A stretch of DNA of 64,000 nucleotides from an uncultured Verrucomicrobiae bacterium (GCA_963813025.1 CAWEXO010000009.1:128001-192000), one strand, 5' to 3'; positions 45,766-57,077 are shown, counted from the stretch's first letter. Numbers and translations are program-made. Notes: generated from the sequence alone by a model not told the origin.

Positions 45766-45804
45766 ACGCGGCGAGACGGCGCCGTGCGGCTGCAAAAGAA
45801 AGCC

Positions 45805-46845
45805 ATGTCACTTCACCGACAGGACGCCAAAGCATCCTTTTCCCGCAGCGGCCGCGAATTGGGCTCTCCACCTTCTTTTGCATCGTCTCTTCTGGATGCG
45901 CTGCGACGCCATCCGGCCGGTAATATTCTGATCATCTTCGTTCTCCTGGAGATTAGTTGTATTGTCGCTTCTCTGGCGTTCCCGGATCAATTCCGGTATG
46001 TCAGTCCGCTCAATATCCAGTCAGTTCTCCGAGCGATTCCCCAGTTGGGGATAATCTCTATCGGAGTAGGGATTCTGATGATTGCCGGGGAATATGATCT
46101 ATCCGTCGGTGCAAACTTCACCTTCTCCGCCTTGATTATGGCTAACAGCTACAATGCACGATGGCCTCTGACTCTGGCCGTTTTTCTCGCCTTGCTCACT
46201 GGAGCTGCGCTTGGGGCGGTGAACGGAATGATCACTTTGCGAGCGAAGATTCCCTCTTTTATTGCCACATTGGGTATGATGATGCTGCTGCGTGGACTAA
46301 TCCTTTTTTCTTCAGGTACCCAAACTCGTCCTTTTCATCCGGGAACATTTTTTGAGAACGTAATGACTGGATCCGTCGGCCTAGTCCAATTCGCTTTCCT
46401 CTGGCTACTTGCGGTCACCGGTGCGGCGTACCTGCTGATGGACCGCCATCGCCTTGGCAATCATCTCTACGCGGTCGGTGGGAACCGCGAAGCGGCAACT
46501 GCCATCGGGGTGAAAGTTTTCCGCGTAAAGCTATTGGCGTTTTCAATCGCGGGTTTCACCGCAGCCCTGTCTGGAATAATCAGTACGGTCCGGGTCAGTT
46601 CGGTGTCCCCGATTCAGGGTCAGGGTCTCGAATTGCAGGCGATCGCAGCCTGCGTCATCGGCGGGGTGTCTTTGGCCGGAGGAAAAGGTTCGATGATTGG
46701 CGTCCTCTTGGGAGCCGCCCTCCTTTATACAATTCAAGACATTCTCCTGTTGCTGCGCGCGCCCGGTTTCTACCTCGATGCATTTATTGGATTCATTATC
46801 CTCGTCGCCGCAACCCTGAATCGTCTGGTACAAAAGGAGGCTTGA
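45805..46845 (+). CDS. Sugar ABC permease
   Basis: AGEYDLSVG, YAVGGNREAA and LELQAIAACVIGG. Confidence 0.92.
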   Translation: MSLHRQDAKASFSRSGRELGSPPSFASSLLDALRRHPAGNILIIFVLLEISCIVASLAFPDQFRYVSPLNIQSVLRAIPQLGIISIGVGILMIAGEYDLSVGANFTFSALIMANSYNARWPLTLAVFLALLTGAALGAVNGMITLRAKIPSFIATLGMMMLLRGLILFSSGTQTRPFHPGTFFENVMTGSVGLVQFAFLWLLAVTGAAYLLMDRHRLGNHLYAVGGNREAATAIGVKVFRVKLLAFSIAGFTAALSGIISTVRVSSVSPIQGQGLELQAIAACVIGGVSLAGGKGSMIGVLLGAALLYTIQDILLLLRAPGFYLDAFIGFIILVAATLNRLVQKEA

Positions 46846-46847
46846 TC

Positions 46848-47612
46848 ATGACGAACCCTCCTGGAGCCGCCGAGACCTCCGTTTTTCCTTTGATTGAGCT
46901 GAAGGGCGTCTGCAAAAGCTTCGGAAAGGTCGTCGCGCTCAATCACGTCGACTTCGAGATCAGGCTGAACGAGGTGGTTGGCCTGCTCGGCGATAATGGG
47001 GCAGGGAAGTCGACATTAGTGAAGATGCTGTCCGGAGTCGTCTTCGCGGATGAGGGCGTCATTCTTCGCAACGGGTCGGCCGTCAAAATCACCTCGTATT
47101 CCGACGCCGAGAGACTCGGGATCGAAACAATTTACCAAGATATCGCACTGGTGAATACGCTGTCGGTGTATCGCAATATGTTCCTTGGACGCGAACAAAC
47201 CAATGCACTGGGTTTTCTCCATCGGCGGGCCATGCGATCAAAAACTATTGAGATTCTTCGAAGCTCTGTAAAGATCGCGGGCATTGACTCCCCAGATCAA
47301 CTGGTTGGAGGACTGTCCGGAGGCCAAAGGCAGGCGGTGGCTATAGCCCGAGCAGTCTACTTCCGTAAAAAAATACTTTTACTCGACGAACCGACCAGCG
47401 CCCTATCGGTTCGTGAGACAGAAAATGTCCTGGATTACATCGTCCAGCTGCGGCGCGACGGAGTTACCTGTGTCTTTGTCACCCATAATCTTTACCATGC
47501 CTTCCGCGTGTGTGATCGGTTCGTCGTCCTATCCAGAGGGCGCAAGGTGCTCGACGTCGCCAAGCCGGCCACGAACCTGGAAAAGCTCACGTCAGTAATC
47601 GTGAACGAGTGA
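46848..47612 (+). CDS. Sugar ABC ATPase
   Basis: GDNGAGKST, LSGGQRQ and LDEPTSAL. Confidence 0.93.
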   Translation: MTNPPGAAETSVFPLIELKGVCKSFGKVVALNHVDFEIRLNEVVGLLGDNGAGKSTLVKMLSGVVFADEGVILRNGSAVKITSYSDAERLGIETIYQDIALVNTLSVYRNMFLGREQTNALGFLHRRAMRSKTIEILRSSVKIAGIDSPDQLVGGLSGGQRQAVAIARAVYFRKKILLLDEPTSALSVRETENVLDYIVQLRRDGVTCVFVTHNLYHAFRVCDRFVVLSRGRKVLDVAKPATNLEKLTSVIVNE

Positions 47613-47619
47613 CCTGATT

Positions 47620-48471
47620 ATGATTCTCGATGCCCATCAACACTTTTGGAAAGCTGACCGAGGCGATTATCACTGGATGACCCCAACCGTGCCTGTTCTG
47701 GCCCGCGACTACTTACCCGGTGATCTACGGCCCGAATTGCGGAAGACTGGCGTGACTAGAACGATTTTGGTTCAGGCTGCGCAAACGCTTGCCGAAACAC
47801 AGTTCTTGTTGGCGCTTGCCCGCGAAACTGATTTTGTTGCCGGAGTTATCGGATGGTTTGACCTCGAGCAAGAAGACTTTCCAGACACATTTCAACGCTG
47901 CCGCCGCGAAAACCCTTGTCTGCTCGGTGTGCGACCGATGTTGCAGGATCTCGAGGACGACCGCTGGATTTTGCGACCGCAGGTGATCACGAACCTTCAC
48001 TATCTAAGTGCGTGCAAGGTACCGTTCGAATTCCTTACCTATACCCGTCATTTGCCGAGTGTGCTGCAGGTTCTGGAGCAGGTTCCGGAATTGCCCGCTG
48101 TGGTCGATCACCTTTCGAAGCCGGAGATCAGAGCAGGGAAAATTCAACCCTGGGCTGATCTCATACTGGAAGTAGGTAAACACTCGAAAGTCTTTTGTAA
48201 GCTTTCCGGTATGGTTACCGAGGCTGACCACCAGTACTGGTGTCCTGCACATCTTGCTCCATACGTCGATCACGTATTGCGTTCTTTCAGTGAGGATCGC
48301 ATCATGTTTGGTAGCGACTGGCCTGTTTGCTTGCTCGCGGGTAGCTATGCCGAAGTCATCAATGCGCTTCGGACCGTTTTAGCTCCGCGGCTGACACCAG
48401 TTGGCCTCGCTAAAGCGTTTGCTGAAAACGCCGCCAGGTTTTACGGCATCCACGGTTTGCTCGATGAGTGA
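47620..48471 (+). CDS. Amidohydrolase 2 family (L-fucono-lactonase-like sugar lactonase)
   Basis: DAHQHFW, ILVQA, VDHLSKP, KLSGMVTE and MFGSDWPVC. Confidence 0.88.
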   Translation: MILDAHQHFWKADRGDYHWMTPTVPVLARDYLPGDLRPELRKTGVTRTILVQAAQTLAETQFLLALARETDFVAGVIGWFDLEQEDFPDTFQRCRRENPCLLGVRPMLQDLEDDRWILRPQVITNLHYLSACKVPFEFLTYTRHLPSVLQVLEQVPELPAVVDHLSKPEIRAGKIQPWADLILEVGKHSKVFCKLSGMVTEADHQYWCPAHLAPYVDHVLRSFSEDRIMFGSDWPVCLLAGSYAEVINALRTVLAPRLTPVGLAKAFAENAARFYGIHGLLDE

Positions 48472-49450
48472 GAAAATTCTGAACCTGGGGGTGATTGGTG
48501 CGGGAATAGTCGCCGCAGGACCGTACCGGAAAGCTTTGGCCCGCCAGCCCATGATTAAAGCGACTGGTGTGGTCGATCCGGATAGCAAACGAGCGGAAGC
48601 CTTGGCGAGTGAGCTGAAGACGAGGGTTTATCCCGATTTGGATGCCCTTCTCGGCGATCCAAAGATTGATGCCGTAGCGATCTTAAATCCTAACCATCTC
48701 CATGTGGAGACCGCCTTGCGCAGCCTGCAAGCAGAGAAACACGTCCTCTTAGAGAAGCCGGTTGCCGAAACCGTTGAAGAAATTGACCGACTGCAGGCAG
48801 CTTCGAAACGGGCGGCGAGAGTCTGCATGCCTGCCCATAATTACATCTATAATGCCAGTATAGAACGGGCGAAGCGCTTAATCGCAGAAAAGCGACTGGG
48901 CAAGATTGCAAGCGCCTGGATTCTCTACAACATCTTCCACTCGGAAGAAATCGCCAGCCGTTATGGTGGAGTATTGCGCGAGGTTTGTGTACACCACGCT
49001 TATTCATTGTTGTACCTCCTGGGCCGGCCTGCGCGGGTTGGCGCGACGGTGTCACGAGTGCATTATCAAGAACTGACCTGTGAAGACCAGGCGATGCTAA
49101 CCTGCCAGATGGCAGGCGGTGCTCTGGCTCACCTCTGGGCGAGCTTTGCGGCGAGCGATCCAACGGGTGATTCTTGGACAGTCATTTACAAGATTCTCGG
49201 AACTGGCGGCGGCGTTACTTACACCTGGGACGATGCCCGGTTTGAAGACAGTGGAGGTCCCGCTTGGGGAATCCCGAATTACCTGGATGGCTTTTCGAAC
49301 GAACTGGACTTTTTTGTGCGTCGAGCCATTGCTAACAGCGAAGCGCCCCTTTCCACCCTCGCCGACGCTCGAGATGCCATTTGTATCATCGAAGCTGCCG
49401 AGCATTCCTTGAGTCGTTTCGGTGCCGCCGTTGAAGTAAATTATCGTTAG
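48464..49450 (+). CDS. Gfo/Idh/MocA oxidoreductase
   Basis: GVIGAG, PNHLH and HVLLEKP. Confidence 0.9.
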   Translation: MSEKILNLGVIGAGIVAAGPYRKALARQPMIKATGVVDPDSKRAEALASELKTRVYPDLDALLGDPKIDAVAILNPNHLHVETALRSLQAEKHVLLEKPVAETVEEIDRLQAASKRAARVCMPAHNYIYNASIERAKRLIAEKRLGKIASAWILYNIFHSEEIASRYGGVLREVCVHHAYSLLYLLGRPARVGATVSRVHYQELTCEDQAMLTCQMAGGALAHLWASFAASDPTGDSWTVIYKILGTGGGVTYTWDDARFEDSGGPAWGIPNYLDGFSNELDFFVRRAIANSEAPLSTLADARDAICIIEAAEHSLSRFGAAVEVNYR

Positions 49451-49455
49451 CAATT

Positions 49456-50628
49456 ATGGGATCGACGATCACTCGGGTTCAGGTTCATGAATTTCGGTAT
49501 GAAGTAAATGACCTTGGGATGGACGCCGGCGGGTTTGACTTTGTATATCTTCCCGCTCACCGCCAAGCAATTACCAAGGCCGCCATTGTCATCGAGACAG
49601 CGGATGGTGCGAAGGGCGAGTATGTCGGTTTATGGGGCGCAACACCGATGGCGCTCGCCCAAACGATTATGCTGGCGCCGCATCTTCTCGGCAGAGACAG
49701 CTTTCAGCGAGAGCTCATTTATGACGAATTCAAAAGAGCGCTGCGTCAGTACGATCATATGGGCCACGGAATGATCGATATCTGTCTTTGGGACCTGGCT
49801 GGAAAACAGCTCGACGCTTCCGTCTCAACCTTGCTGGGCGGTTATCGATCCCGCCTTCCGGCTTATGCGAGCACATTGCATGGCGATCGCCATGGCGGCT
49901 TATCTTCCAAAGAAGCATACGCCGATTTCGCGATCCAATGTCGGCAGATCGGCTATCGAGCTTTCAAGATCCATGGGTGGTATGACGGTAATCCCAGGGA
50001 AGAGGCGGCAACAATTGAGCACGTTCGCAAGAGCGTCGGAGACGAGATGGTGCTGATGTTAGATCCCGCTTGCCAGATACGCACTTTTCTCGATGCACTG
50101 GCGGTTGGAAAGGCATGTGATCAGGCCAACTTTCTTTGGTTGGAAGATCCTTTTCGGGATACTGGCGTTTCCCAGTTTGCTCACCGAAGATTACGCCAGC
50201 TCATCAAAACGCCGATTCTCTGCTCTGAACACGTTCGCGGCCTCGAGCCAAAAGCGGATTTCGTTATAAACGGCGGAACGGATATCTTGCGGACAGATCC
50301 GGAGTACGACATGGGAATAACTGGTGCCTTGAAAATAGCGCATTTGGCTGAAGCGCTAGGTCTTGATGTCGAGGTGCACGCCGCCGGCCCAGCACACCGG
50401 CATTGTATGGCGGCGATTCGGAATACCAACTATTACGAACTCGCCTTGGTTGGTCCGAAGTGCCGAAACCCTTTGCCGGATGTGTATTCTTGTAACTATT
50501 CAGATCAGTTGGATTGCATCGGCCCGGACGGCTGTGTTCCAGTGCCTGATGGGCCTGGCTTGGGAGTCAATTACAATTGGGATTTCATTGCGAGTCATCG
50601 CTTTGCCCTTCACGAGTTCCGGGCTTAA
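49456..50628 (+). CDS. Mandelate racemase/enolase-superfamily enzyme (likely acid-sugar dehydratase)
   Basis: DICLWDLAGK, PAYAST, KIHGW, LMLD, WLEDP, SE, EVH and PDGPGLG. Confidence 0.88.
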   Translation: MGSTITRVQVHEFRYEVNDLGMDAGGFDFVYLPAHRQAITKAAIVIETADGAKGEYVGLWGATPMALAQTIMLAPHLLGRDSFQRELIYDEFKRALRQYDHMGHGMIDICLWDLAGKQLDASVSTLLGGYRSRLPAYASTLHGDRHGGLSSKEAYADFAIQCRQIGYRAFKIHGWYDGNPREEAATIEHVRKSVGDEMVLMLDPACQIRTFLDALAVGKACDQANFLWLEDPFRDTGVSQFAHRRLRQLIKTPILCSEHVRGLEPKADFVINGGTDILRTDPEYDMGITGALKIAHLAEALGLDVEVHAAGPAHRHCMAAIRNTNYYELALVGPKCRNPLPDVYSCNYSDQLDCIGPDGCVPVPDGPGLGVNYNWDFIASHRFALHEFRA

Positions 50629-50782
50629 GCCGCCGTCGCATGAGCTTCCAGCTATTCGTGCCTCAGATCGGGACCATTCGTGACTGCGGGCTTCCAGTGA
50701 CTCCTATCAGCCGCGACCTGCCGTACGTGTCGGACTTTGGGATCTGTAGCGCTCCATCAAGCGATTGGTCGCACGAGCGCTC

Positions 50783-52179
50783 CTAAGAAACTAAATCCGT
50801 TGCTGGCTCTAAAGGCGTGAGTTGGAAGCCGAATTCTTTAGCTCGTTTGCTGAGATTGTGAAGTAGGCGGTCTTTGTACTTTTCTTCATAGTAGGTTTGG
50901 CCTTGCTCGACGTAGGCGGCGCCGAACTTGAGCATGCGATAGAACAAGCGTGCGAGTTTGTGAGCCCCGGCGTTAATGGCCGTGGGTGCGCCCAGTCGGG
51001 CTTTGATGCGGCGGATAAAGGCCCCAATGGCGGTCTTGCTTTGCATCGCTCCTTGGGCCGCCAGGCGGAACATCGCCGCGGCGCGATTCTTGGTTTTTCT
51101 GGGTCTGGAACTGAGAAGTTTGCCTCCGCTGATGCGATTGTCCGGGCAGAGTTTGAGCCAGGAACAAAAGTGTTTTTCGCTTTTCCAACAGTTCATGTCT
51201 AAACCCGTTTCGCGAAATGATGACTTCCACCGCCAGGGTGCTCAAGCCAGGCAGACGAGTCAGATCGACTCCGCAAACGCTGGCCAGATAGGCTTGACGT
51301 TGCAGTTGCCAGGCGAACTTGGGCCGAACGTGCTTTCAAAGCGCCGCTTTGCTCGAGGAATTTGTTCAAAATCGAGTTTGGTCTCGAATTGCTCAAGTTG
51401 TTGCTCAATCTTGTTTTCACATTCGGTGATCTTAAGCTGATAGGCATCATAGAGTTCGAGCGCCGTTTGCAAGGCGAAGAGATGCTCGGCTCGGTAATCT
51501 CCTTCTAAAGCCTTAACGATCTGTTCGGTGGATGCCTTGACTTGAGGGTGTTTCATCTGGGCAAGCTTGAGCGCATCGCGTTCTCCGGCCAAGATCGCCC
51601 GAATCATGGCCATACCGGTGTAGCCGGTGATGTCGCTCAAGACTCGATGGATTTGGATGTTCATTTCGGTTAAGGCCTTCTGCATGCGTAAAACATGGCT
51701 GCTGCAGTCTTTGACTAAGGTGTCACGCAGGCGCAGAAAGCTGCGCAAAATGCAGACTTCGTCCTTTGGTCGGAACGAGCCGTTTAAAAGCCCAAAGGTG
51801 TGGAACTGTTGAAGCCATTGGCAGTCGGAGACATCGCTTTTGCGACCGGGCAGATTCTTCACATGAGCAGCATTGACCAATTTTACCTCCAAGCCTCTCT
51901 GCTCCAGAATCTGGAATACCGGAATCCAATAAACCCCGGTTGATTCCATCACCACCGTCTCAATGTGATGTTCATTGAGCCAGTCGGCTAGCCGGTGCAG
52001 ATCGCTGGTAAAAGGGCCAAACTTACGGATATTTTCCTCGAGCTGCGATCTTCGGGAATGGCCACGAGGTGAAAATTGGCTCCGATATCGATTCCTGCAG
52101 CATTGAGATTGATCCGTTCGAGAACATTTTTGCGGGCTTTTGATTTGCCCTTGCGGCTGGTCGTGGTTTTCTTTGCCAT
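50783..52179 (-). pseudogene. IS110 recombinase split by frameshifts
   Basis: AAGIDIG (D), MESTGVYW (E), RKSDVSD (DD), CPDNRISGGK (catalytic Ser loop) and AHKLAR are in three ORFs: 51988-52179, 51260-51955 and 50783-51196. Confidence 0.9.
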
Positions 52180-52214
52180 ACGTATCTTCGGGCTTAAGAT
52201 GTTGTTTTTACTTT

Positions 52215-52410
52215 CAAAGCGCAGCGCATCGGCCCGAGTTGGTGATATTTGAGATAAATCTCCTAAACAGGATAGCTCCAGATCGGCTAGCCACCGATCT
52301 GGAGCTTCGCTAATGCAACAACCAAATCGCTCGGAACCAAACTAGCTATCGGGCATGAAGCTCCAATGCCGTACATCGGTCTTAACTGCCGACCCACTGC
52401 TGCCTACTCT
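52215..52410 (-). ncRNA. Candidate IS110 bridge RNA
   Basis: Non-coding region 5' of the recombinase with two similar loop modules (..GC-ATTGG...TGCCCG.. and ..GC-ATTAG...ATCCTG..), a 13-bp perfect stem (52274-52286/52294-52306) and segments matching the element ends. Boundaries are approximate. Confidence 0.6.
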
Positions 52411-52487
52411 CGTACAACAAGTGCCCGAGGCGATCAAACCAACGTTTCTTGCCGCAACAAGAACCCGCAGGAGTTCTGGGGAACTAG

Positions 52488-52685
52488 CTAGAGATCGTCT
52501 CAGAATGCCGCACTGTCCTGCGCTGGTAGGGCGAAAATTTATTCGAGCGCAGGCGAGAACTTGTTTGAGCCATCTGGAGCGGGTGGCTCACCCAAGCGTC
52601 TGGCTCAAACAAGTTCTCGCCAAGGCTCGAATAAATTTTCGCCCTACCGGCGCAGGACCAAAAACGCGTTGAGACATGTCTCTAG
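52488..52685. repeat. Most complete GTAG-capped palindrome with CTAG...GTCTC outer termini (MITE-like)
   Basis: Near-perfect stem 52515-52572/52601-52658. Outer inverted repeat CTAGAGATCGTCTCA / TGAGACATGTCTCTAG. Confidence 0.85.
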
Positions 52686-52686
52686 C

Positions 52687-53657
52687 TAAGTACTCACGTT
52701 CGGAATTACGGTGACGTATTTCGTCAGGCTGCTCGAGCCAGCCGTTTGACGGCGATCTTGGCCAGAAGACATTGAGATCGCGGCGGGTGAAGGTCCAATT
52801 GAAGGGCGATGCCGAGCGCTTTTGACTTCACAGCGGCCGAAGACTCTTCTCGATGGACATCCCAGGCTGCCAGATAGGTCCAGGCACCCATGCGGAAGTA
52901 CTCATGCTCGACGTGCCTCGGGCGAGTGGGCGCCGGCGGTAGCGTCGGTTGTTTTCGGCGGCGGGATTGAATACTGGTCTTTTCGTCTGCGCAGATGACG
53001 TAATCATCGGCACCCAGTGGAGCGCCCTCCCAGACACGTTGGTAAAGATCGAGGATGGGTCCGGCTTTTCCGGCAAAGTCCGGATCGCGGGGGAAGATCC
53101 AGCTTCGATGTTTCCAGGGGCGAAGGGCATCGCTGCTCTAACCAGCGCCACAAAGTAGCGCCGCTGATCTCAGCGACCAGGCCTTGCGAAATAACGTGCT
53201 GGCGGGTTTCCTCAACCGAGAGCCGAGACAATGGGAGCCCGAGGGTGTAAGGAAGCTCGCAGGCGAGTGCCTTAACCTGAACGATGAGACCGGGGGGAAA
53301 AGCGGGCCTTACGCCCGCCTCGAGGCTGCGCCTCAAGGCCAGGCAATCGGGCAAAGGCGAATCGCTTACGCCACTTGCTGACAATCTGACGCGGCGTATC
53401 CAGCCGGGACGCGATCACGTCATTGGAGAGTCCTTCATCTGCGAGGAGGATGATTTTGGCACGGATCACATCACAATACGATGACGTATATTTCCTTGCC
53501 ATTGATTCCAGCGTCTGTCGCTCCTCGCTGGAAAGATTCACATTAAGTGGGCTTTTTCTTGGCATTAGGGACACTATTCCTCTGATGCAAGCCTATCAGA
53601 TTACGTCACCGATTCGACTCTAAAATACGTCACCGTATTTCCGAATAGTTGTACTTA
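52687..53657 (-). mobile_element. IS630-family element, internally deleted (non-autonomous)
   Basis: TIRs TAAGTACTCACGTTCGGAATTACGGTGACGTATTT / AAATACGTCACCGTATTTCCGAATAGTTGTACTTA with TA at both ends. HTH ORF at 53272-53565. The DEKTSIQ and EHEY segments join directly to C-terminal PFNWTFTR. Confidence 0.88.
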
Positions 53658-53779
53658 GCCAGCGGTCACAACTAACGGGGATTTCTCGCAACGGAGGTCG
53701 AGGTGCGATTGTATTCGCCATGCTGCGAAAAGAAAATCGGGTCTTGATTAAAACGATAAAAAATGTCGTTATGGATTCG

Positions 53780-55061: not shown

Positions 55062-56063
55062 CTATTTGATTTCCAGCCGGACCGGCTGCTGGTCTCGTGC
55101 CGACTCATAGGCCGCCAAGGCAACTCTTAAGGCCTCGTACCCGTCTTTCCAGGTGACCTGGGGTTTACGTTTCTGTCGAATGCTCGCAATAAATTCTTCA
55201 AGCATCGCGAGGTTCGGATCGGGACCGAAACCAACCCAGCAGGGGTTTCGAGAAGAGCGCTCCGAGTAGAGAGTCACGTATTGAGCAAAACTGTCCATCA
55301 CCGCCAAGCCGTTCTCTCCGACTACTTCCATCTTCAGGTGCCCCCAACGAGGATAGGAAGCCGGACGGCTCCAGCTGCAATCGATGCAGGCGTGGACGCC
55401 GTTGGAAAGAGTGAGCAACAAAAATCCCGCCGTATCAACGGCCAATTCTTCTCGCTGAAAAAGGTTATCTACTTCGGCGTAAACCTCGACTACCTCCGCG
55501 CCGAAATACCAGCGGAGCAGGTCGACCAGATGCACGGTGTGGTCCATTACCGCACCGCCACCAGCTAGTTCCCTGTCCGCAAACCAGGCTCGGTGGCGTG
55601 CTGGATTCTCGCTGTGATTAACCCCGTTCACACCGAGCACAGCCCCGAGCTCACCGCTCCGGATCATGCGACGGACGACTTGAGTCGAGGGCGCAAAACG
55701 CATCGGAAAAGCGGTCATGAAGTGCACTCCGCTCTGCCGGCAAGCCGCCAGCATCGAGCCCGCGTCGGAAAGATGGGTCGCGATCGGTTTTTCGCATAAG
55801 ACGTTGCTCTTGGCCTCAGCCGCCATTTGTACCAGCTCCCGATGACGCGCGCTCTCCGAACAGATCAAAACGCCCTCAAGTCCTTCTGCCAAAAGGTCAC
55901 GATGCCGCGGGAACCAGTGCAGCCCAGATTCCTCCGCGACTCGACGCCCGAGGTCTCGATTCTCTTCCGAAAATCCGACGAGCTCAGCCTCTGGAAGTGT
56001 TTTGATGAGAGCTGCGTAATGGTCGGCATGAACATGAGCGAAACTGAGAATGCCAAGGCGCAT
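55062..56063 (-). CDS. Gfo/Idh/MocA oxidoreductase
   Basis: GILSFAHVHA, LCEKPIA and GGGAVMDHTVH. Confidence 0.92.
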   Translation of the reverse strand: MRLGILSFAHVHADHYAALIKTLPEAELVGFSEENRDLGRRVAEESGLHWFPRHRDLLAEGLEGVLICSESARHRELVQMAAEAKSNVLCEKPIATHLSDAGSMLAACRQSGVHFMTAFPMRFAPSTQVVRRMIRSGELGAVLGVNGVNHSENPARHRAWFADRELAGGGAVMDHTVHLVDLLRWYFGAEVVEVYAEVDNLFQREELAVDTAGFLLLTLSNGVHACIDCSWSRPASYPRWGHLKMEVVGENGLAVMDSFAQYVTLYSERSSRNPCWVGFGPDPNLAMLEEFIASIRQKRKPQVTWKDGYEALRVALAAYESARDQQPVRLEIK

Positions 56064-56072
56064 AAATGAGGC

Positions 56073-57077
56073 TCAAACGGTTGCTGACCTGCCAGTAGAC
56101 AGCGATTCTTTCACCGCCAAGGCGATTCGCAGAGCCTGGAACGCGTCATCGGCTGTTAACTCAAAAGGTGATCCGGACTCGATAGCACTATACGCGTGGC
56201 GGATTTCCGCGGTGTAGGGATCTTCCGAAAGGTCGGACAGCGGCAAGCCCACGGATTCTGCTTCACCGGATCTTGATCTTGGCGGGAAAAACGTCTGAAC
56301 CGCCGGCGCCTGATCCGAATGCCACTCGACAAGGCCGCCTGATCCCGCGAGGTCTATCGCGGTACGAAAAACTCCTGGTGGGTTAGCCCACCCTCCCTCG
56401 ACGAGAGCCAAAGCACCGCTCTGGAAGCGCAGGATAGCTTGCACATACTGCGCCGGGCCAGTTGCGGATTGCCCTCTTCGGGCGTAGACCCGTTTTACCT
56501 CTCCGGCCAGCCAGCGGGCATAATCGAAATCGTGGATCATCAGATCGACGACCATGCCGCCCGAGCGGTTCTCATCAAGATACCAGTTGTCGTGAGGCGA
56601 TCCTGCTCCCGCGTCTGGGATCCGCGGCGGATAAGCCACGCGTTTAAGACGTACCACCCCTAGCTGGCCAAGTTGGCCGCCGGTGACGAGTTCTCTCGCT
56701 AAACGGTACTGCGGGAAGAACCGCACGACCATTCCGACAAAGAGGCGAACTCCAGCTTGCTCGCAGCCATGGATCATCGCGGCGGCGTCTTGGAGCGTGA
56801 CAGAGATCGGTTTTTCGCAAATCACGTGACGGTGGGCGTTGGCCGCCTCCAAAACCATCGATTTGTGCAGAAAAGTCGGTAGGCAAATATCCACGATATC
56901 GACGGAGTCCAAGAGCTTGGCCCGGTCGGTAAAGCCGCGGATATTGTGACGTTTGGCCAAGTCATCTCGCTGAGCAGCATGCAGCGACGTACAGCCTACC
57001 AGCTCGGCATCGGTGCTGCGCCAGGCGGTCGCATGGATTTCGCCCATCGTTCCCGTGCCGATAATGCCAACGCGCAT
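56073..57077 (-). CDS. Gfo/Idh/MocA oxidoreductase
   Basis: GIIGTGTMG, ICEKPI and SGGMVVDLMIHD. Confidence 0.92.
   Translation of the reverse strand: MRVGIIGTGTMGEIHATAWRSTDAELVGCTSLHAAQRDDLAKRHNIRGFTDRAKLLDSVDIVDICLPTFLHKSMVLEAANAHRHVICEKPISVTLQDAAAMIHGCEQAGVRLFVGMVVRFFPQYRLARELVTGGQLGQLGVVRLKRVAYPPRIPDAGAGSPHDNWYLDENRSGGMVVDLMIHDFDYARWLAGEVKRVYARRGQSATGPAQYVQAILRFQSGALALVEGGWANPPGVFRTAIDLAGSGGLVEWHSDQAPAVQTFFPPRSRSGEAESVGLPLSDLSEDPYTAEIRHAYSAIESGSPFELTADDAFQALRIALAVKESLSTGRSATV

What the first reader, a model, noticed from the sequence alone, without database searches (positions are those of the whole stretch)
50779..52460. IS110 element with a candidate bridge RNA whose guides match its own ends
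Seen: a non-coding stretch of about 270 bp 5' of the DEDD recombinase contains, on the minus strand, two parallel modules, GATGTACGGC-ATTGG-(loop)-TGCCCG-ATAGCTAG and GGTTGTTGC-ATTAG-(13-bp hairpin)-ATCCTG-TTTAGGAG. CTCCTAA occurs both in the second module (52260-52266) and at the element end (50780-50786). TTGTTGC matches the other end, TTCTTGC (52446-52452), at 6 of 7 positions. Established: IS110 recombinases use a bispecific bridge RNA with target- and donor-binding loops. Inference: module 2 is the donor loop for a GTTTCTT-GC-TCCTAAG circle junction with a GC core, and module 1 predicts a target like TGTACG-GC-TAGCTAT. The present flanks fit that target poorly. An alternative end including GCAACAA (52454-52460) cannot be excluded.
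Basis: partly seen in the sequence, partly recalled or inferred. Interest (0 to 1): 0.7.

Follow-up and report, generated by a model that had tools for sequence, protein, structure and literature searches.

The report
Bridge RNA reading folded-back donor DNA
This jumping gene carries a real guide ("bridge") RNA of a known kind, but one of its guides matches a spot well inside the element's own end, behind a DNA hairpin, which suggests that the end folds back on itself to be recognised, unlike the textbook case.

Summary
Twelve sister copies and a contig lacking the element fix it at 50780-52485, with core AG and a one-sided target TAGCT-AG. The 3' guides spell the target and the right end. The unexpected result concerns the left donor guide (TTGTTGC). 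It does not match the bases beside the core. It matches a site 24-30 nt inside the left end (52460-52454), on the same DNA strand that the right guide reads, just behind a conserved hairpin. This covaries across 22 protein clusters (4.13/7 versus 2.38 permuted) and in 23 held-out pairs (4.0 versus 2.12). Best explanation (about 50%): one strand folds back to form the donor, giving top-strand-only transfer. Against it: mutating the equivalent palindrome in the relative ISPpu9 still gave circles, there is no strand or replichore bias, and no RNA data exist. This copy's ORF is frameshifted, but intact sisters share both donor guides. The scan noted bridge RNAs and reversed guide order before, on other DNA including this genome. 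I did not find the displaced guide site in its notes or in the papers I read. New variant; interest 0.68.

The parts
50780..52485 (-). IS110-family element including both AG cores (1,706 bp)
   Evidence: 12 sister copies share these ends; a contig of run X1 joins 50779 to 52484, skipping 1704 with 2 letters fitting either side
52486..52490 (-). Target half-site TAGCT read by the right target guide (host DNA, inside a palindromic repeat)
52484..52485 (-). Left core AG (CT on the strand paired by the right guides)
52478..52483 (-). 6-nt spacer TTCCCC: position of the canonical left donor, not matched by the left donor guide; its first 2 nt match the target-loop handshake bases
   Evidence: canonical match 1.36/6 against 1.43 permuted; the handshake match is partly circular because it was used to call left ends
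52460..52477 (-). DNA hairpin AGAAC...GTTCT between core and guide site (weak here, z -2.2; stronger in many homologues)
   Evidence: z < -1.5 in 54 of 77 elements against 6 of 77 control segments; starts 5-6 nt from the core in 53 of 77 and ends at the site start (0/+1) in 56 of 77
52454..52460 (-). Displaced left-donor-guide site TTGTTGC, 24-30 nt inside the left end, same sense as the RNA guide
52444..52450 (-). Left subterminal inverted repeat AAGAAAC; the 124-bp mini-element keeps the left end exactly to here
   Evidence: the two repeats covary 6.18/7 against 5.59, 0 of 20000
52223..52388 (-). Predicted bridge RNA core (two internal loops); the true 5' and 3' ends are unknown
   Evidence: only match of model R1 in the window (the model was built with this sequence)
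52368..52376 (-). Left target guide segment ATGTACGGC (2 nt longer than in relatives); canonical but loose in the clade, at chance for the sister family's targets
52340..52349 (-). Right target guide ATAGCTAG plus handshake TT
52313..52321 (-). Left donor guide TTGTTGC plus AT
52258..52267 (-). Right donor guide TTTAGGAG plus AT
   Evidence: positions 2-6 match the right end 5.00/5 against 2.96 permuted in 59 elements, right end called without the RNA
50783..52179 (-). DEDD recombinase gene, broken by five single-base insertions relative to the nearest relatives (near 52045, 52041, 51363, 51310, 51213); real decay or assembly error unresolved
50785..50791 (-). Right subterminal inverted repeat GTTTCTT, 3 nt from the core, overlapping the stop codon
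50780..50781 (-). Right core AG

Best explanation
An IS110-family element of the long-recombinase clade that includes ISPpu9. It moves with an upstream bridge RNA whose right guides read the target (TAGCT-AG) and the right end (TTAGG-AG) on the strand antisense to the ORF (the 'top' strand). Shown by sequence comparison: ends, core, one-sided target, RNA fold, covariation of three guides with their usual partners, and covariation of the left donor guide with an internal left-end site on that same top strand. Inferred: the top strand turns back at the hairpin, so the internal site lies opposite the 6-nt spacer and plays the part of the bottom strand. In the circle junction the two subterminal repeats close the structure, leaving a pre-opened bubble that holds the core and both guide sites. 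The folded arm has no complement to the core, so only top strands can be exchanged and replication would complete the event (copy-out, with a single-stranded or locally extruded donor, as with integron attC sites; that comparison is recalled). Insertion regenerates the target at the left junction, which explains the tandem stacks. This copy and the mini-elements would be moved in trans by intact sisters.
For: Left donor guide against internal site 4.13/7, permuted 2.38, 0 of 20000, 77 elements in 22 clusters. The offset scan over both strands peaks once, z = 6.4, at 10 nt before the repeat on the same-sense strand. In 20 independent tree pairs own beats swapped 13 times, loses once, ties 6. 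Held-out: 23 new pairs 4.0 against 2.12; 15 with unseen guide 5-mers 4.0 against 2.05, 0 of 20000. The canonical left donor is at chance in both sets, while the same register works for the left target guide (2.68/6 against 1.51). Transition mismatches favour G-T/U-G wobble with the antisense strand, 12 against 3, p = 0.035. Hairpin position is fixed relative to core and site. Mini-elements without RNA keep exactly this 40-nt end. ISPpu9's 43-nt A box has the same layout by eye, also in MITEPpu9, and lies upstream of a transcription start about 84 nt in, so it acts as DNA. Top-strand-only excision and single-stranded circles are reported for CazIS110-1 and IS621.
Against: Point mutations in the ISPpu9 A-box palindrome still gave correctly joined minicircles by PCR (PMC12288879); I could not see which bases were changed, nor ISPpu9's own guide. 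No strand preference in hairpin G-T pairs (9 sense, 7 antisense) or in junction folding (repeat stem P > 0.5 in 50 of 59 sense, 49 of 59 antisense). For this copy the predicted repeat stem is minor (P 0.14 and 0.32), and a natural mini-element junction folds no better than shuffles (z -1.1 and -1.7). No orientation bias against GC skew (8 against 7 of 15). Matches are imperfect (mean about 4 of 7) and the register wanders (shifts -2, -1 and +1 keep some signal). The left target guide, used as a control, shows a weak excess at the site (1.96 against 1.58, 814 of 20000). CazIS110-1 prefers double-stranded donor about 20-fold at one junction. No expression or biochemistry for this element.
Confidence: 0.5

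Rival explanations
1. The left donor guide does pair with the internal site, but without fold-back geometry: it is an accessory anchor in duplex DNA (or a second RNA-protein dimer binds there), catalysis at the core rests on the right donor guide alone, and the palindrome and repeats are protein-binding sites.
For: Explains all covariation results. Fits the lack of strand bias and the ISPpu9 palindrome mutant. Half-match recombination is reported for IS621.
Against: Does not explain why the stem starts 5-6 nt from the core and ends at the first base of the site while its sequence and length change freely, which is what places the site opposite the spacer.
Confidence: 0.3
2. The left donor guide is unused. 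The element works by right-guide half-matches, and the guide-site likeness is a by-product of shared ancestry, base composition or copying.
For: The left target guide is already at chance for 11 sister-family targets (2.09 against 2.17). The control guide shows a small excess at the site. One-sided donor matches are common in natural IS110 junctions.
Against: One sharp offset on one strand (z = 6.4), 13 to 1 in independent pairs, replication with unseen guides and wobble-biased mismatches.
Confidence: 0.1
3. The hairpin and site act at the RNA level (terminator against read-through, or pairing of the guide with an antisense RNA) and regulate expression rather than recombination.
For: ISPpu9 makes an antisense RNA over its 5' leader. 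A hairpin followed by a T-rich run occurs in some members.
Against: Many sites are not T-rich. The terminator scan did not flag this hairpin. By the lengths given in the paper the antisense RNA ends well short of the A box (my arithmetic). RNA-less mini-elements keep the segment.
Confidence: 0.07
4. One reading: left end near 52452, GC core, canonical two-strand donor, target TGTACG-GC-TAGCTAT.
For: 6/7 match at 52446-52452 in this copy.
Against: Copy boundaries, tandem junctions and the empty allele all place the crossover at AG 52484-52485. The match does not covary.
Confidence: 0.02

Closest known systems
ISPpu9 / MITEPpu9 of Pseudomonas putida KT2440 (PMC12288879, PMC8450116)
   Same: AG core, upstream long leader, 43-nt left box with a palindrome, short right box, non-autonomous derivative, tandem copies, repeat targets. 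The cluster representative listed for ISPpu9, ISPsy35 and ISWpi13 in Durrant's Supplementary Table 1 shares the motifs of this protein by eye.
   Different: In the passages and sections I read, no guide was mapped to the left box and the palindrome's role is left open. Different target. I could not obtain ISPpu9's RNA to test its guide (one search found nothing).
IS621 and ISCro4/IS622 bridge recombinases (PMC11208160, PMC11208158, PMC13626964)
   Same: DEDD plus Ser architecture and fold (best E 2.6e-11, 17% identity), RNA upstream of the ORF, two internal loops, 2-nt core that reads CT on the top strand, handshake positions.
   Different: 463 against about 326 aa, with a predicted helical insertion at about 172-229 inside the coiled coil. 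Guide order reversed relative to the ORF. 7-bp subterminal repeats. Left donor guide matches the top strand 24-30 nt from the core instead of the bottom strand next to it.
IS1111-group seekRNA elements such as ISEc11 (PMC11187229)
   Same: Order of the target matches (top-strand complement first) and subterminal inverted repeats.
   Different: RNA lies upstream, not downstream. The left repeat is pushed 27-39 nt inward by the hairpin and guide site.
CazIS110-1 and IS621 copy-out / half-match pathways (10.1101/2025.10.25.684509; 10.64898/2026.08.31.748434)
   Same: Top-strand-only exchange and single-stranded circles, which the fold-back model needs.
   Different: As described in the parts read, the left donor guide pairs with the bottom strand; no folded donor is proposed.
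ISPpu10 stem-loop gate (10.64898/2026.03.19.712850)
   Same: A DNA stem-loop adds to RNA pairing, and the left guide is permissive.
   Different: There the stem-loop is in the target, not in the element's own end, and it does not relocate a guide site.
Integron attC and IS200/IS605 folded single-strand substrates (recalled, no call)
   Same: Works-like comparison: a folded single strand as recombination substrate, one strand exchanged.
   Different: Different enzymes, no RNA guide. Membership is not claimed. The lagging-strand bias recalled for IS200/IS605 was not seen here.

Membership tests
IS110 family | DEDD RuvC-like domain plus Transposase_20 domain | tested here: met
   Pfam on window pieces and intact sister; NCBIfam NF033542 247 bits, cut-off 140
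IS110 family | Catalytic D, E, D, D and C-terminal serine | tested here: met
   D31, E78, D115, D118 in 42 of 42 aligned proteins; position 349 is S in the sister and in 21 of 42, T in the other 21. The window copy is frameshifted.
IS110 family | Short shared core at both ends, no target duplication | tested here: met
   AG at both ends and in tandem junctions; empty allele with 2 ambiguous letters (one contig, 23 letters on the short side)
IS110 family | Circular intermediate | tested here: inconclusive
   Head-to-tail junctions exist, but no end-to-end joint appeared in contigs of 3 runs
IS621-type bridge RNA | Two internal loops closed by covarying stems in the non-coding end | tested here: met
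IS621-type bridge RNA | Right target and right donor guides match target and donor, core included | tested here: met
   Target 10 of 15 exact, 2 more by one wobble; donor 5.00/5 against 2.96
IS621-type bridge RNA | Left target guide pairs with the opposite strand next to the core | tested here: inconclusive
   Met weakly across the clade (2.68/6 against 1.51, 49 elements in 17 clusters), at chance for 11 sister-family targets
IS621-type bridge RNA | Left donor guide pairs with the bottom strand next to the core | tested here: not met
   1.36/6 against 1.43; held-out 1.33 against 1.56; it matches the internal same-strand site instead
IS621-type bridge RNA | Guide order relative to the ORF as in IS621 | tested here: not met
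   The 3' guides read the ORF-sense left target and right end; IS1111-like order
IS621-type bridge RNA | RNA is expressed and binds the recombinase | not testable with these tools
   No RNA holder listed
IS1111 group | Subterminal inverted repeats of 7-17 bp | tested here: met
   7-bp repeats that covary
IS1111 group | Long non-coding end and RNA downstream of the ORF | tested here: not met
   The RNA is upstream; the right end overlaps the stop codon
IS1111 group | Recombinase groups with IS1111 in a tree | not tested
   No IS1111 proteins were fetched; the ISPpu9 paper places ISPpu9 in the IS110 group
Folded single-strand substrate (attC-like; works-like only) | Strand-specific folding and single-strand dependence | tested here: inconclusive
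   Hairpin conserved, but no strand asymmetry and no replichore bias

The most novel reading that the evidence does not exclude
A widespread IS110 clade (Verrucomicrobia, Cyanobacteria, Proteobacteria and others, 39-100% identity to the sister protein, probably including ISPpu9) recognises its donor as one folded DNA strand. Both donor guides pair with the same strand, a hairpin supplies the missing arm, and the single-stranded copy-out circle is therefore ready to integrate without second-strand synthesis. This would be an RNA-guided counterpart of folded single-strand substrates and would allow programmable insertion of single-stranded cargo.
Probability: 0.5. Interest if true: 0.82.

Novelty: new variant of a known kind. 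Interest (0 to 1): 0.68.

Why it matters
Whether IS110 elements move as single- or double-stranded circles is being argued now. A clade whose end sequence encodes a same-strand donor gives a direct test of that question. It would assign a role to the unexplained ISPpu9 A-box palindrome. It also gives a design rule: surveys that rebuild donors from 25-nt windows and canonical strand pairing would score this guide as missing, and orthologue screens built on short canonical donors would omit a needed cis element. Even if fold-back is wrong, the displaced guide site is a reproducible departure from IS621.

Tried and rejected
(1) Left end carrying an extra CTAG. Joined flanks were 4 bp longer than empty repeat copies at this site, and removing CTAG gave mostly zero net difference at three repeat sites (28 of 54, 130 of 186, 26 of 33). 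Rejected because tandem junctions lack CTAG, an unoccupied paralogue has TAACTAG and the empty allele keeps CTAGCTAG. Where the 4 extra bases came from is open: 1 doubtful case among 12 of 124 free sites with paralogues. (2) Left guides as mere structural motifs: rejected, they vary and covary. (3) My first left-target test was off by one register and gave chance; the corrected register gave a signal, so I re-tested the left donor in that register too. (4) Rfam: 4 matches, all below gathering score, none in the RNA. (5) Sequencing runs: no RNA holder listed. The element contigs listed for run X1 differ from this copy at about 10% of positions, so the frameshifts could not be checked; X1 may be the source sample and is not independent. 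(6) No sense-strand sigma-70 promoter match in 52150-52560. (7) Replichore bias: none. (8) ISPpu9 sequence: not in viral contigs, and not found in the two supplements searched. (9) The helical insertion has no credible Pfam match. No complex prediction was run.

Full report
VERDICT. The element is an IS110-family insertion sequence with a real bridge-RNA gene.

1. OBSERVATION. All quoted motifs are at the stated places. The ORF (52179-50783, minus strand) gives DEDD_Tnp_IS110 and a weak Transposase_20 hit. It carries five single-base insertions that are absent from the nine nearest relatives aligned across those positions (92-93% identical). All five are insertions, so assembly error cannot be excluded.

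2. TRUE ENDS. The genome holds 12 sister copies about 88% identical to this one (10 full-length, 2 interrupted). Eight of the 10 full-length copies have a 463-aa ORF. There are also five mini-element units at three loci; the single one is 124 bp. All copies share the right end TTTCTTAGG-AG and a left end that runs to 52483, not 52452. Three head-to-tail junctions in the genome read right end-AG-left end, as do L009 and L093. A 322-nt contig of run X1 matches 50481-50779 with 3 differences and continues at 52484, skipping 1704 bases with 2 letters that fit either side. The tool warns that joints with under 30 letters on one side are weak; this one has 23, but its long side includes the unique neighbouring gene. 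The element is therefore 50780-52485 with core AG. Across 15 insertion sites the left flank is TAGCTAG in 10, TAACTAG in 2, and a near variant in 3; the right flank carries at most 0.54 bit per position. Because only one side matters, each insertion rebuilds a target, which fits the tandem stacks.

3. THE RNA. I collected homologues from genome contigs (78 loci), metagenomes (80) and relatives. Of 203 loci with a protein match, 141 were parsed, 125 had a left-end call, and 77 distinct elements in 22 clusters at 70% identity were tested. An alignment of 58 of them folds into two internal loops with 16 of 24 pairs compensated. The model finds 13 copies in the genome and one in the window. The 3' strand of loop 1 spells the left junction; in homologues this comparison is circular because it was used to call the end, but in this genome the ends were fixed independently. 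The 3' strand of loop 2 spells the right end (5.00/5 against 2.96, 59 elements). Both end in the core, as in IS621, if the top strand is the one antisense to the ORF; this is the order reported for IS1111 elements. The left target guide is canonical but loose (2.68/6 against 1.51), and at chance for 11 sister targets.

4. THE DISPLACED GUIDE. The left donor guide does not match the bases beside the core (1.36/6 against 1.43). It matches, in the same sense, the 7 nt that begin 10 nt before the left subterminal repeat: 4.13/7 against 2.38, 0 of 20000 permutations across clusters. A scan of 42 offsets on each strand has one peak, z = 6.4. Among 20 independent tree pairs with different guides, own beats swapped in 13, loses in 1 and ties in 6 (62 of 77 proteins entered the tree). 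For a held-out test I searched 74 further loci with the RNA model: 72 matches, 40 with a left end and repeat call (32 dropped for lack of one), 23 guide-site pairs not in the first set. They give 4.0 against 2.12; the 15 with unseen guide 5-mers give 4.0 against 2.05. Five of the 23 score 3 or less, three of them in a subclade with a longer loop where the model probably picks the wrong columns. Transition mismatches favour wobble pairing with the antisense strand, 12 to 3. Clusters are kin, so the permutation counts overstate certainty, and the left target guide used as a control shows a small excess (814 of 20000). Between core and site lies a hairpin of changing sequence: z below -1.5 in 54 of 77 against 6 of 77 controls, and 13 of 23 held-out. 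It starts 5-6 nt from the core and ends at the first base of the site. The mini-elements keep the left end exactly to the end of the repeat.

5. MECHANISM. Both donor guides must pair with the same strand, and their sites are separated by a U-turn of the right size. The simplest reading is that the top strand folds back so that the site lies opposite the 6-nt spacer and stands in for the bottom strand, with the two repeats closing the circle junction. This predicts top-strand-only exchange finished by replication, in line with single-stranded circles reported for CazIS110-1 and IS621. The ends, guides and covariation are shown; folding, strandedness and expression are inferred. Results against: the ISPpu9 palindrome mutant still made circles by PCR, though excision can run on half-matches and the authors suggest a role in integration. 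There is no strand asymmetry, this copy's own junction folds mainly another way, and there is no replichore bias. I give fold-back 0.5, an accessory duplex anchor 0.3, an unused guide 0.1 and an RNA-level role 0.07.

6. COMPARISON. The protein passes NCBIfam IS110 and folds like IS621 and ISCro4 (pLDDT 88), with a predicted helical insertion in the coiled coil; that the insertion binds the hairpin is only a guess. The closest studied element appears to be ISPpu9, judged by eye from its end boxes and from a cluster representative. It is an IS110 member and works like a bridge recombinase, but it fails two IS621-type features (guide order, left donor pairing) and one IS1111 feature (RNA position).

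7. LITERATURE SEEN. PMC11208160: passages and a supplement search (one picture-only file not searchable). PMC11208158, PMC11187229, 10.1101/2025.05.14.653916, PMC8450116 and 10.1101/2024.06.21.599552: passages. PMC12288879: passages, section 17, first part of section 18, supplement passages and part 2 of 3. 10.1101/2025.10.25.684509, PMC13626964 and 10.64898/2026.08.14.744561: first part plus passages (25, 103; 19, 99). 10.64898/2026.08.31.748434 and 10.64898/2026.03.19.712850: first part. 10.64898/2026.10.21.760802: passages and section 2.4. Eight searches turned up no description of a displaced same-strand donor guide. Figures and preprint supplements were not visible; Durrant's Extended Data Fig. 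10c and the cluster models in the 2026 survey's Fig. S12 could show it, and most subscription papers are not in the library. The attC and IS200/IS605 comparisons are recalled.

8. EARLIER NOTES OF THE SCAN. A note on another piece of this genome already called a sister's arm a bridge RNA with wrongly mapped ends, and one on another genome reported reversed guide order. In the short texts shown neither mentions the internal site, and a word search for a folded single-strand donor found nothing.

9. SCORE. New variant of a known kind; interest 0.68. The sequence result is solid and testable with existing assays; the mechanism is about even odds.

Noticed in passing
alignment A3, position 349 of L001:1359-2747: The catalytic serine position is threonine in 21 of 42 clade proteins while the DEDD residues are invariant; one literature search gave nothing on this.
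   Followed up: partly
window 52682-53662: IS630-like element (40-nt inverted arms; weak NF033545 hit) inserted at a CTAG in the same palindromic repeat; its junction forms a free TAGCTAG target.
   Followed up: partly
window 52515-52658 and 50720-50779: Large palindromic repeat family with many copies genome-wide; it hosts at least three of the IS110 insertions.
   Followed up: partly
L002, L003, L004 (G000:C14:36986-37227, C14:104508-104758, C13:343107-343235): Mini-elements of about 120 bp with the 40-nt left end and 14-nt right end, alone or in tandem, like MITEPpu9. The C13 unit sits just before a sequence resembling the left end of another IS110 (L093).
   Followed up: partly
L009:560-2400: Tandem stack in which the target guide matches the ORF's own right end, and the donor guide matches the end of an upstream 60-bp mini-element with covaried repeats.
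   Followed up: no
L205, L207, L209-L211, L079, L081: Subclade with an AA core, an A-run target guide and a longer donor loop; the internal site matches a segment 8-9 nt further 5' in the loop (7 of 7 in L211, by eye).
   Followed up: partly
window 52486-52489; G000:C11:492921 and C11:436296: Occupied repeat sites are 4 bp (CTAG) longer than the repeat consensus, yet free copies of such duplications were hardly found; origin unexplained.
   Followed up: partly
L011-L016, L087/L094/L098/L102: In several multi-copy relatives the two flanks are inverted repeats of each other, so the target sits in a host hairpin, as reported for ISPpu10.
   Followed up: no
L194, L199, L201, L203: Little or no RNA upstream of these ORFs; the model hit lies elsewhere in the locus.
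   Followed up: no
window 45784-50628 and 55062-57077: ABC sugar transporter, amidohydrolase-like, oxidoreductase-like and enolase-superfamily genes flank the element (MR_MLE, the others by eye).
   Followed up: no
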